Below are positions 46,786 to 48,043 of a DNA stretch of 64,000 bases, one piece after another. The position numbers and the translations under genes were made by a program. Position 1 is the first letter of the stretch. Every line of letters begins with the position of its first letter. Where the stretch lies: the sequence record NC_005856.1. One strand, 5' to 3'. The notes below the pieces were generated by a model, which was not told where the DNA came from, did not search any database, and saw only the letters and a program-made list of their open reading frames with translations. The DNA is from Escherichia phage P1.

Positions 46786-47598
46786 CTATTTTAATTCTAT
46801 GTAGTTTTTAAATTCTCCCTCATATTTATACATGATGCTATCAAATCCTTCCATTACATCAACGAATTGTTGTGAACATTCCGGCTTCCAAGGCGTACAC
46901 TTACGAACCATATCCATTTTATTCTTATCCTTCGTTGTATCGACTAAGGATAGGTACCCTATAAAATTCATCATCTGAACAGGATCTTGATTTGTGAATA
47001 TATATTTGACGTTTTGCTTAGTAGGTGAAAAAGAATCAAAAGCAGGGAACATATATTCACCAGAAAAAGAGAGTGCAGCATCAATGACGTCTGTTGCTGG
47101 AGTGCAGTTGCTCAGAATTGGCACTAAGCTAAAATTAGCACCGGAGCACACTGCATATATATCATCCCCTTTTTTTAGTTTTAACAGAGAGTCTTGCTTT
47201 GAATCCAATATTTTCAATTTGATATAATTTAGTGGCGTTGCATTTTCCCCTGGAGTAAATAATTCTACAATTGGTTTATTATTCACCATTCTTATGGATT
47301 TTATTTCACCATACACAATTGGAATTGTGTTCCATTTTTCCTGAGCAGCAAATTCATTATCTTTAAAATCATTAACCAACTCAGATGGCAAATGATAACC
47401 AAATTGATTGTTCATTGCTTTCGAAGCAAATCCAGACAAATAGAATGCCCTTACTAAATCATAATCTTTCTTTGAGGTAGAAAGCCAATCTGGCAATTTA
47501 TTATCAGCTATCGCGCTTCCAGCAAAAATAGCACAACAAAATGTTATTACATTAAATAATTTCATTTTCCATTCACTCATTAATCGGTTTAAACTCAC
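46786..47598 (-). CDS. simC: Sim superinfection-exclusion protein precursor (SimC); probable start at the internal Met 47565 (MKLFNVITFCCAIFAGSAIA signal peptide)
   Basis: AT-rich ORF with a classical N-terminal signal peptide; position between the tail operon and immI matches the P1 sim locus. Confidence 0.6.
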   Translation of the reverse strand: MSLNRLMSEWKMKLFNVITFCCAIFAGSAIADNKLPDWLSTSKKDYDLVRAFYLSGFASKAMNNQFGYHLPSELVNDFKDNEFAAQEKWNTIPIVYGEIKSIRMVNNKPIVELFTPGENATPLNYIKLKILDSKQDSLLKLKKGDDIYAVCSGANFSLVPILSNCTPATDVIDAALSFSGEYMFPAFDSFSPTKQNVKYIFTNQDPVQMMNFIGYLSLVDTTKDKNKMDMVRKCTPWKPECSQQFVDVMEGFDSIMYKYEGEFKNYIELK

Positions 47599-47908
47599 TA
47601 ATTAATTCACCAAGACTATTTGGGTATGCTTTATAAATAACATACTCCGAAGAGCCATCTGAATATTGGTAAACCCCATAACAGACCAGTTTATTTATTC
47701 CTTTCTGAATAGTTTTTTGATTATAAGAATCAACCACTGTTATTCCATATGACGATAATATTTCGTTATATTCTTCAATAAGAGCTTTTCTTGTTTCCAC
47801 TGAATTGCAATCTACCTTCGAAAAGTCAACTTCATCAGCAAAAACATTAAATGTTAAAAAGGAAAGCACTAAAAACAAACGAATCAGCATAAATCCACTC
47901 CTACGCAT
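47573..47908 (-). CDS. simB: SimB, small secreted protein (111 aa; signal peptide MLIRLFLVLSFLTFNVFA)
   Basis: Second signal-peptide ORF of the AT-rich sim cluster. Confidence 0.5.
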   Translation of the reverse strand: MRRSGFMLIRLFLVLSFLTFNVFADEVDFSKVDCNSVETRKALIEEYNEILSSYGITVVDSYNQKTIQKGINKLVCYGVYQYSDGSSEYVIYKAYPNSLGELISEFKPINE

Positions 47909-47911
47909 GGA

Positions 47912-48043
47912 TTAATAGTCATTGATCGCAAAGGCGTAAACGTGCCCAAGGTATTTCGTATAATCGGTACAAATCTCCTTTACGCTTGATGCTGCATTAA
48001 CAGTCCCAGCCATAAATAATAACGGTAGTAATAGTTTTCTCAT
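47912..48043 (-). CDS. simA: Small signal-peptide ORF (43 aa, MRKLLLPLLFMAGTVNAASS...), position of P1 simA
   Basis: Not in the six-frame table (under 60 aa); ATG 48043 preceded by AGGTGAGG; read directly from the sequence. Confidence 0.35.
   Translation of the reverse strand: MRKLLLPLLFMAGTVNAASSVKEICTDYTKYLGHVYAFAINDY

What the first reader, a model, noticed from the sequence alone, without database searches (positions are those of the whole stretch)
46786..48043. AT-rich sim cluster: three consecutive signal-peptide ORFs including a 43-aa ORF missing from the six-frame table
Three minus-strand ORFs in a row each begin with a classical signal peptide: a 43-aa ORF at 47912-48043 (MRKLLLPLLFMAGTVNA...), the 111-aa ORF, and the 270-aa ORF whose probable start is the internal Met preceding MKLFNVITFCCAIFAGSAIA. 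The region is AT-rich relative to its neighbours and ends in a clear terminator. The position matches the P1 superinfection-exclusion (sim) locus; the two small secreted ORFs have no assigned role that I know of.
Basis: partly seen in the sequence, partly recalled or inferred. Interest (0 to 1): 0.45.

Follow-up and report, generated by a model that had tools for sequence, protein, structure and literature searches.

The report
Phage P1 sim exclusion operon
This is the already annotated simA-simB-simC superinfection-exclusion operon of phage P1; all three products do carry export signals, but the 43-residue "SimA" is the leftover front end of a much longer gene that is intact in related phages.

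Summary
The window is phage P1 (AF234173.1, same coordinates). The finding is its annotated sim operon: simC 46786-47580, simB 47573-47908, simA 47912-48070, all on the minus strand. GC is 30-37% against 46-50% in the flanks, there is a 7-bp GC hairpin plus U-run terminator, and there are three consecutive Sec-type signal peptides.

- SimA: 43 aa from ATG 48043
- SimC: 259 aa from ATG 47565
- SimB: likewise starts at ATG 47890 (105 aa)

What I add:
- P1 simA is a 5' stump. Its 43 codons plus the next 5 match codons 1-48 of a 179-215-aa exported protein. That protein is intact in vB_EcoM-Ro157c2YLVW, Cronobacter phage JK004 and two other contigs, one of which has the order long-simA, simB-like, simC-like.
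- SimB is a conserved two-cysteine periplasmic domain that travels with SimC.
- The cassette (46629-48141) is a swap site between the late promoter LPsit and operator Oc4.
- Full-length SimA carries a motif shared with the tape-measure protein Sit.

Verdict: already known and ordinary, with small annotation corrections and one testable lead.

The parts
46629..48141 (.). Exchangeable AT-rich cassette between the late promoter LPsit (46608-46626) and the C1 operator Oc4 (48140-48156).
   Evidence: All P1-like loci are alignable from 46628 downward and unalignable above it (alignment A8). P7 diverges from P1 below 48142 (alignment A1). GC is 0.30-0.37. Published work lists simABC among eight variable low-GC regions of P1-like phage-plasmids (PMC9603915).
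46732..46751 (-). Intrinsic terminator hairpin ending the sim operon (7-bp stem, 5 GC pairs, 6-nt loop, then UUAUUGUUUU).
   Evidence: Terminator scan. RNA fold shows the hairpin in both the MFE and centroid structures.
46786..47565 (-). simC, the sim exclusion gene proper. The precursor is 259 aa, with a signal peptide at residues 1-20 (47506-47565), an N-terminal helix, an OB fold at about residues 58-156 and a helical C-terminal domain. Cysteines are at 140/154 and 223/230. GenBank starts it 15 nt upstream, at 47580.
47573..47890 (-). simB. The precursor is 105 aa, with a signal peptide at residues 1-18 (47837-47890) and a mature domain of about 87 aa with invariant Cys28 and Cys70. GenBank starts it at 47908, which belongs to the simA-derived sequence.
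   Evidence: AGGAG at 47898-47902 lies 7 nt before ATG 47890. The PHROG 14329 profile begins at this Met. Database clusters are 105 aa. A 6-sequence alignment down to 44% identity has 32 invariant columns, including both Cys.
47912..48043 (-). simA as a 43-codon ORF: signal peptide at residues 1-17 (47993-48043) plus 26 residues. It is the 5' stump of a longer gene. GenBank annotates 47912-48070 (52 aa).
   Evidence: GGTGAGG at 48049-48055 lies 5 nt before ATG 48043. Residues 10-50 of the annotated protein match positions 1-41 of the 213-position PHROG 3933 profile, E 6.7e-24. Full-length homologues are shown.
47900..48043 (-). Full extent of the sequence homologous to codons 1-48 of the long simA genes. 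It runs through the simA stop (TAA, 47912-47914) and the annotated simB ATG (47906-47908) and ends at the simB ribosome-binding site, which marks the deletion or recombination junction.
   Evidence: tblastn of the 179-aa L036 protein hits P1 at 47900-48043. The DNA alignment with Ro157c2 and L035 breaks after ATGCG(T/C)A(G/A)GA. megablast of E. coli genomes that carry only the long type stops at query position 1119, which is window 47904.

Best explanation
This is the sim (superimmunity / superinfection-exclusion) operon of phage P1. It is an AT-rich cassette of about 1.5 kb that sits between the immI control region (Oc4/c4) and the late tail operon. It is transcribed leftward and closed by its own terminator.

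All three products are made with cleavable Sec signal peptides and act in the periplasm.

SimC (259-aa precursor, cut after Ala20) is the exclusion protein. Published work reports that Sim is processed and may prevent superinfecting P1 from delivering DNA into the cytoplasm. I infer that its OB-fold domain plus disulfide-stabilised helical domain binds a component of the incoming ejection apparatus, or the DNA conduit, in the periplasm.

SimB (105-aa precursor) is a conserved two-cysteine periplasmic domain that travels with SimC as one AT-rich module. I infer it is SimC's partner or stabiliser.

SimA in P1 is not an independent small gene. It is the first 43 codons (signal peptide plus 26 residues) of a 179-215-aa exported protein whose remainder was lost when, or after, the simB-simC module was joined to it. 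Promoter, ribosome-binding site and start survive. The stump is probably still translated and serves at most as a leader for simB-simC expression (inferred).
For: Identity and annotation:
- 100% match to AF234173.1 with simC, simB and simA at these coordinates.
- simC is the sim exclusion gene, citing Maillou & Dreiseikelmann 1990 (PMC2409434). Sim confers exclusion, citing Kliem & Dreiseikelmann 1989 (PMC9177967). Sim may prevent DNA entry into the cytoplasm (PMC8546580).
- simA, simB and simC are non-essential in a CRISPRi screen (PMC10695390).

Export signals.

SimA as a stump:
- PHROG 3933 matches only profile positions 1-41 of 213.
- Ro157c2 has a 215-aa ORF with the same first 36 residues at the same locus.
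- The divergent element L036 has the order long-simA (179 aa), simB-like (58% identity), simC-like (37-39% identity), pmgC.
- L035 carries simB, simC, then the full-length gene.
- Homology in P1 ends at 47900.
- GC is 44-45% for the long gene against 31-34% for simB and simC, in P1, L035 and L036 alike.
- One natural variant has lost the simA stop (TAA to AAA), so simA and simB form one continuous reading frame there.

SimB conservation.

SimC fold. SimC rarity: 15 hits among 1.84 billion representatives.
Against: - No signal-peptide predictor and no experiment was run here. Export of SimA and SimB is inferred from sequence rules only.
- The 43-codon ORF is intact in 27 of 28 copies, which a functional peptide would also show. 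The substitution counts (2 synonymous, 4 non-synonymous) are too few to separate drift from selection.
- The SimC model has only moderate confidence (pLDDT 69.5), and the C-terminal half is weaker.
- The Pfam tRNA_anti-like hit is below threshold (19 bits against 23.5).
- No target of SimC or SimB is known, so the binding step is inference.
- The original papers (1982, 1989, 1990, and Lobocka 2004) were not in the library. What they show is taken from their titles, the GenBank records and citing papers.
Confidence: 0.8

Rival explanations
1. SimA is a genuine small secreted peptide (26 residues after cleavage) with an accessory role in exclusion, as the GenBank note 'putative superimmunity accessory function' suggests.
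For: - The ORF, its Shine-Dalgarno sequence and its signal peptide are intact in 27 of 28 sim-carrying copies.
- The first 40 or so residues are the best conserved part of the long protein family, with 28 invariant columns, so the stump might retain a binding surface.
Against: - All sim-type copies are at least 97.7% identical in simA, so intactness is expected without selection.
- 4 of 6 substitutions are non-synonymous, including Gly-His to Trp-Gln.
- One variant has lost the stop codon, so simA reads through into simB.
- NCBI's annotation pipeline does not call the gene in the E. coli plasmids that carry the cassette, where only two proteins are annotated.
- Wherever the locus is divergent, the gene is long.
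Confidence: 0.12
2. simA and simB are one gene (156 aa) split in P1 by a nonsense mutation. The fused form seen in plasmid pMCR_SCKP-LL83 would be the ancestral state.
For: - simA, the 3-nt spacer and the annotated simB are in one frame.
- In pMCR_SCKP-LL83 the stop is AAA, and a 156-aa ORF is annotated there.
Against: - TAA is present in 27 of 28 copies.
- SimB homologues in L035, L036, the Citrobacter plasmid and D6-like plasmids each begin with their own signal peptide and have no SimA-like extension.
- A strong AGGAG precedes ATG 47890.
- The codon aligned to the stop is GAA, inside the long gene.
- A protein with two successive signal-peptide-like segments is unusual.
Confidence: 0.04
3. 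The cassette is a generic AT-rich 'moron' (accessory gene picked up by the prophage). SimB and SimA would serve host fitness, for example envelope stress or colonisation, rather than phage exclusion. Only SimC would be related to exclusion.
For: - The alternative cassettes at the same site encode other exported proteins with no known phage role: P7 has a lipoprotein plus a DUF5384 protein, and Ro157c2 has the long SimA plus a YfjT-like protein.
- No PADLOC defence model matches any of them.
Against: - SimB stays linked to SimC across 37-39% protein identity (SimC) and shares its unusual base composition.
- SimB-like domains in D6-like and Citrobacter plasmids also sit next to the icd/ant immunity region.
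- The full-length SimA carries a motif of the phage's own tape-measure protein, which points to phage-directed activity.
Confidence: 0.1

Closest known systems
Phage P1 simABC operon (GenBank AF234173.1, Lobocka et al. 2004; sim gene of Devlin et al. 1982, Kliem & Dreiseikelmann 1989, Maillou & Dreiseikelmann 1990)
   Same: It is the same DNA: 100% identity at the same coordinates, with the same three genes.
   Different: Nothing differs in sequence. My reading differs from the record in the start codons (SimA 43 not 52 aa, SimB 105 not 111 aa, SimC 259 not 264 aa) and in treating simA as a gene remnant.
PHROG 3933, the RefSeq 'simA domain protein' (179-215-aa exported proteins of P1-like phage-plasmids, e.g. 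vB_EcoM-Ro157c2YLVW AWN06566.1)
   Same: Same locus, promoter side, ribosome-binding site, signal peptide and first 36-48 residues.
   Different: P1 keeps only about 20% of the protein. It lacks everything after residue 43, including the Sit-like motif.
Pfam PF12869 tRNA_anti-like / PDB 3f1z 'putative nucleic acid-binding lipoprotein' (OB fold)
   Different: SimC itself scores below the Pfam threshold. It has a Sec signal peptide rather than a lipobox, and it adds an N-terminal helix and a helical C-terminal domain of about 100 residues. No function is established for the family.
Periplasm- or membrane-acting superinfection-exclusion proteins of other phages (T4 Imm and Sp/Spackle, P22 SieA, Streptococcus phage Ltp)
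   Same: They work alike: prophage- or phage-encoded envelope proteins that stop a related phage after adsorption, at DNA entry.
   Different: No sequence relationship was found. A weak Spackle hit for the long SimA (E 0.048) was not confirmed, and PADLOC has no match.
PHROG 13054 (273-303-aa proteins of D6-like plasmid prophages)
   Same: Their N-terminal 115 or so residues are a SimB domain (45-52% identity, both Cys conserved), and they also lie next to the icd/ant region.
   Different: There the domain is fused to an unrelated C-terminal domain of about 150 residues. No SimC is present, and that C-terminal domain shows no similarity to SimC.

Membership tests
P1 sim operon (simC, simB, simA) | Located between c4/immI and pmgC of a P1-type genome, with sequence identical to the annotated genes. 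| tested here: met
   megablast gives 100% identity over 1901 bases at the same coordinates.
P1 sim operon (simC, simB, simA) | Confers exclusion of superinfecting P1. | not testable with these tools
   Known only from the literature.
Sec-type cleavable signal peptide | Positively charged n-region, uncharged hydrophobic h-region of 7-16 residues, and small residues at -3/-1. | tested here: met
   The rule-based scan is positive for SimA (cut after A17), SimB (A18) and SimC (A20). Only 4 of 71 long ORFs in the window pass. SignalP was not run.
Sec-type cleavable signal peptide | Experimental processing or export. | not testable with these tools
   For SimC, processing is reported in Maillou & Dreiseikelmann 1990 (title cited). 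Nothing is known for SimA or SimB.
PHROG 3933 / 'simA domain protein' (full-length SimA) | Protein of 179-215 aa covering the whole profile. | tested here: not met
   P1 SimA covers profile positions 1-41 of 213 only. Full-length members cover 1-213 or 1-164.
Pfam PF12869 tRNA_anti-like (OB fold) | Score at or above the gathering threshold (23.5 bits). | tested here: not met
   19 bits, E 0.0011, SimC residues 67-159.
Pfam PF12869 tRNA_anti-like (OB fold) | Five-stranded OB barrel superposable on the family's structure, 3f1z. | tested here: met
T4 Spackle (PF25676) | Significant profile match to Spackle. | tested here: not met
   Only E 0.048, and only for the long SimA of L036. The PDB profile search does not find Spackle.
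Known anti-phage defence systems (PADLOC-DB 2.0) | Match to any defence-protein model. | tested here: not met
   No families for SimA, SimB, SimC, the long SimA, the YfjT-like protein or the D6-type fusion.

The most novel reading that the evidence does not exclude
The intact form of SimA may be a periplasmic decoy. It carries a motif of about 25-45 residues (GMRHQNVQGTLEERARG) that copies a C-terminal segment of the phage's own tape-measure/transglycosylase protein Sit (GMRREVVQGTLEERARG).

In a divergent relative the motif follows that phage's own Sit variant (VEGTL in both). The motif is conserved at the protein level only, with about 66% nucleotide identity.

If so, the cassette next to immI would be a swap site for exclusion modules aimed at the ejection machinery. 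P1 would have lost this arm and kept only a dead stump in front of simB-simC.
Probability: 0.3. Interest if true: 0.55.

Novelty: already known. Interest (0 to 1): 0.22.

Why it matters
The locus is textbook P1 biology, so the finding opens nothing new by itself. The follow-up still has some practical value:
- It corrects three start codons in the reference annotation.
- It shows that 'simA' should not be treated as a small-protein gene in P1.
- It defines the exact borders of a cassette that is swapped among the P1-like phage-plasmids. The sim cassette is in 127 of 5426 complete E. coli genomes, and the long-simA type is in about as many.

How Sim blocks DNA entry has been unresolved since 1989. 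Three results here give concrete handles for experiments: the OB fold of SimC, the linkage of SimB and SimC, and above all the Sit-like motif in full-length SimA.

Tried and rejected
- Single-sequence AlphaFold2 of SimC was useless (pLDDT 31). It worked only with the 8-sequence alignment.
- The afdb50 fold library was not available.
- NCBIfam found nothing meaningful, and PADLOC found nothing.
- The SimC and SimB families could not be widened. The word-indexed searches gave 4 and 9 clusters, the exhaustive search 15 hits, and the profile search 14.
- The T4 Spackle lead for the long SimA was rejected.
- The PDB sequence-profile search for SimB gave only a chance hit to a sortase.
- The C-terminal domain of the D6-type SimB fusion is not related to SimC.
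- The 163-aa Citrobacter neighbour is not related to the long SimA by hhalign.
- Non-synonymous/synonymous substitution counts for simA were too small to interpret.
- tblastn with a fused SimA-SimB query could not separate stop from sense codons. An exact-pattern scan settled the question instead.
- Lobocka 2004 and the D6 genome paper are not in the paper library.
- Rfam finds nothing inside the sim genes, only C4 and its targets next door.

Full report
**Identity of the window and the locus**

A megablast of 46500-48400 against the phage collection gives a 100% match to Escherichia phage P1 AF234173.1 at the same coordinates. The feature table of that record places three genes here on the minus strand:
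- simC at 46786-47580 ('superimmunity')
- simB at 47573-47908 ('putative superimmunity accessory function')
- simA at 47912-48070 ('putative superimmunity accessory function')

On one side lie the late promoter LPsit (46608-46626) and pmgC. On the other lie the C1 operator Oc4 (48140-48156) and the c4-icd-ant immunity operon. The 1990 sequence of the sim region (M34382) also matches, at 99.2%, with 'ORF1' and 'ORF2'. The finding is therefore the known sim operon.

**Checking the observation**

All elements are real.
- The ORF list contains the 270-aa, 111-aa and 52-aa minus-strand ORFs.
- GC falls to 0.30-0.37 between about 46600 and 48250, against 0.46-0.50 outside.
- A terminator (7-bp stem, 5 GC pairs, then a U-run) lies at 46751-46732.
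- A simple signal-peptide rule finds a charged n-region, an uncharged hydrophobic core and an A-x-A-type site in all three. The predicted cuts are after Ala17 (SimA), Ala18 (SimB) and Ala20 (SimC).
- Only 4 of 71 ORFs of 100 aa or more in the 64-kb window pass the same rule. Two of them are SimB and SimC.

**Start codons**

- SimA: ATG 48043 is preceded by GGTGAGG at a 5-nt spacing, while ATG 48070 has no such site. PHROG 3933 and all homologues start at MRKLLL/MKKL.
- SimC: ATG 47565 (MKLFNV) is the start in the 1990 record (780 nt). It is also the start in the 777-member cluster P0010 and in the 84% and 39% homologues.
- SimB, by the same logic, starts at ATG 47890 (MLIRLF). AGGAG lies 7 nt upstream, the PHROG 14329 profile begins there, and database clusters are 105 aa.

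**What simA is**

The annotated SimA matches only positions 1-41 of the 213-position PHROG 3933 profile (E 6.7e-24). Full-length versions of that gene turn up in four places:
- In phage vB_EcoM-Ro157c2YLVW the same locus holds a 215-aa ORF with the same upstream DNA, ribosome-binding site and first 36 residues as SimA. A 158-aa exported YfjT-like protein follows it.
- A divergent P1-like contig (L036, NCBI assembly GCA_005690115.1) has the order icd-like, long SimA (179 aa), SimB-like (58% identity), SimC-like (37-39% identity), pmgC.
- A third contig (L035) carries a 107-aa membrane protein, simB, simC (84%), the full-length 215-aa gene, the YfjT-like gene and pmgC.
- Cronobacter phage JK004 has a 189-aa version.

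In P1 the homology to these long genes covers 47900-48043. It runs through the simA stop and through the annotated simB start codon, and ends at the simB ribosome-binding site:
- P1 reads ...AFAINDY*SMRRSG...
- The long genes read ...FAVSQDESMRKKL...

E. coli genomes that have only the long type match P1 from 47904 upward.

Base composition agrees with two modules. simB and simC are 31-34% GC in P1, L035 and L036, while the long gene is 44-45%.

So P1 simA is the 5' stump left by a deletion or recombination that joined the simB-simC module to codon 48 or so of the long gene.

The stump ORF is intact in 27 of 28 copies examined. The exception, Klebsiella plasmid pMCR_SCKP-LL83, has TAA changed to AAA, which creates a 156-aa SimA-SimB reading frame. 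These copies are at least 97.7% identical in simA. Intactness is therefore uninformative, and the substitution counts (2 synonymous, 4 non-synonymous) settle nothing.

**SimB**

tblastn against plasmids shows three groups:
- 138 records with the P1-type simA-simB
- about 117 records with only the long-simA 5' end
- about 60 records with divergent SimB-like domains

The divergent ones are the N-terminal part of 273-303-aa proteins of D6-like plasmid prophages (PHROG 13054), plus a stand-alone 113-aa protein in a Citrobacter plasmid. All of these lie near an icd-like gene.

The six-sequence alignment has 32 invariant columns, including Cys28 and Cys70. This fits a disulfide-bonded periplasmic domain under selection. 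No solved structure is related by sequence.

**SimC**

The family is tiny. There are 4 clusters in the word-indexed search, and 15 hits among 1.84 billion representatives in the exhaustive search. Only three or four of those are full-length relatives, at 84%, 39% and 28% identity.

The resulting architecture is signal peptide, helix, OB fold with Cys140/Cys154, then a helical domain with Cys223/Cys230.

**Mechanism**

Shown, or taken from the literature:
- sim confers superinfection exclusion, and simC is that gene.
- Sim is thought to keep superinfecting DNA out of the cytoplasm.
- The three genes are dispensable for lytic growth.

Inferred here:
- All three products are exported.
- SimC acts in the periplasm through its OB and helical domains.
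- SimB is its linked partner.
- The SimA stump has no function of its own beyond providing the operon's first translated leader.

**The cassette**

Alignments fix its borders at 46629 and 48141, directly abutting LPsit and Oc4. At least three alternative contents occur in P1-like elements, and all encode exported proteins:
- sim (P1)
- long SimA plus a YfjT-like protein (Ro157c2)
- a lipoprotein plus a DUF5384 protein (P7, SJ46, RCS47)

Published comparisons already list simABC among eight variable low-GC regions. The whole sim cassette is present in 137 plasmid records and in 127 of 5426 complete E. coli genomes.

**A lead seen on the way**

Full-length SimA contains a motif shared with the tape-measure/transglycosylase protein Sit.
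- Ro157c2 SimA residues 122-168 match P1 Sit residues 937-979: 23 of 47 identical, E 6e-9.
- The same segment hits PHROG 2533, an 1130-position profile, at E 1.2e-7.
- The L036 SimA matches its own Sit: 17 of 27 identical, E 2e-7, with the variant VEGTL in both.
- Nucleotide identity in the motif is only 44 of 66 and 43 of 66. The peptide is conserved, not recently copied DNA.
- SimB and SimC show no similarity to Sit.

This suggests, but does not show, that the intact protein mimics part of the ejection machinery. P1's stump lacks the motif.

**Verdict**

The new points are refinements: three start codons, simA as a remnant, the SimC fold, the SimB domain family and the exact cassette borders. 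There is also one hypothesis worth an experiment.

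Noticed in passing
Window 41474-41602 (-), Sit residues 937-979; L006 1264-1911 (-); L036 5059-5598 and 9007-12264: Full-length SimA proteins carry a motif (GMRHQNVQGTLEERARG) shared with the C-terminal region of the tape-measure/transglycosylase Sit (GMRREVVQGTLEERARG). BLASTP gives E 6e-9, and PHROG 2533 gives E 1.2e-7. In the divergent element L036 the motif follows that element's own Sit variant. It is conserved at the protein level only (about 66% nucleotide identity). 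It may be a periplasmic decoy. JK004's version instead resembles Sit's second GMR repeat.
   Followed up: partly
L038 (MF510496.1, pMCR_SCKP-LL83) 1062-1532: In this Klebsiella P1-like plasmid the simA stop codon is AAA instead of TAA, giving a 156-aa SimA-SimB fusion ORF with two hydrophobic segments. It is 1 of 28 copies examined.
   Followed up: yes
L004 (ON470617.2) 887-1665 and L005 (ON470615.2) 925-1702: In phages vB_EcoM-813R1 and vB_EcoM-673R5 simC is split into two CDSs by frameshifts, while simA and simB are intact. I did not check whether these are real pseudogenes or sequencing errors.
   Followed up: no
L035 209-3109 (Logan SRR14689322 contig): One contig carries both cassettes in tandem: a 107-aa membrane protein, simB, simC (84% identical to P1), full-length simA, a YfjT-like gene and pmgC. 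A homologue of the 107-aa protein (PHROG 4915) also lies next to the SimB-fusion gene in the D6-like plasmid L033 (3272-3631).
   Followed up: partly
L032 2402-3313; L033 2411-3232; L034 2501-2842: The SimB domain also occurs as the N-terminal part of 273-303-aa proteins in D6-like plasmid prophages (PHROG 13054), and as a stand-alone 113-aa protein in a Citrobacter plasmid. In each case it is next to an icd-like gene. The attached C-terminal domain has no detectable relatives.
   Followed up: partly
L003 (P7) 1301-1822; RefSeq records NC_050152, NC_031129, NC_042128: The P7-type cassette gene upf50.5 encodes a lipoprotein (lipobox LLSGC, glycine-rich region). RefSeq and PHROG 1277 label it 'DNA methyltransferase', which looks like a propagated misannotation.
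   Followed up: no
Window 47906 and about 47270: A published scan (PMC2409434) predicted ArgR boxes inside simC and exactly at the simA/simB junction, which is the recombination junction described here. They have not been tested.
   Followed up: no
Window 20325-20882 (-): The signal-peptide rule also flagged this 185-aa ORF (MKGKTAAGGGAICAIAVMITIVMG...). From memory, it looks like the P1 lysozyme with its signal-anchor-release domain. I did not examine it further.
   Followed up: no
Window 48217-48422 (+): Rfam finds the C4 antisense RNA (RF01695, 68.8 bits) and its a1/b1 target element (RF03163, 51 bits) next to the cassette, as annotated. There is also a sub-threshold isrK hit (35 bits) overlapping 48230-48311.
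   Followed up: no
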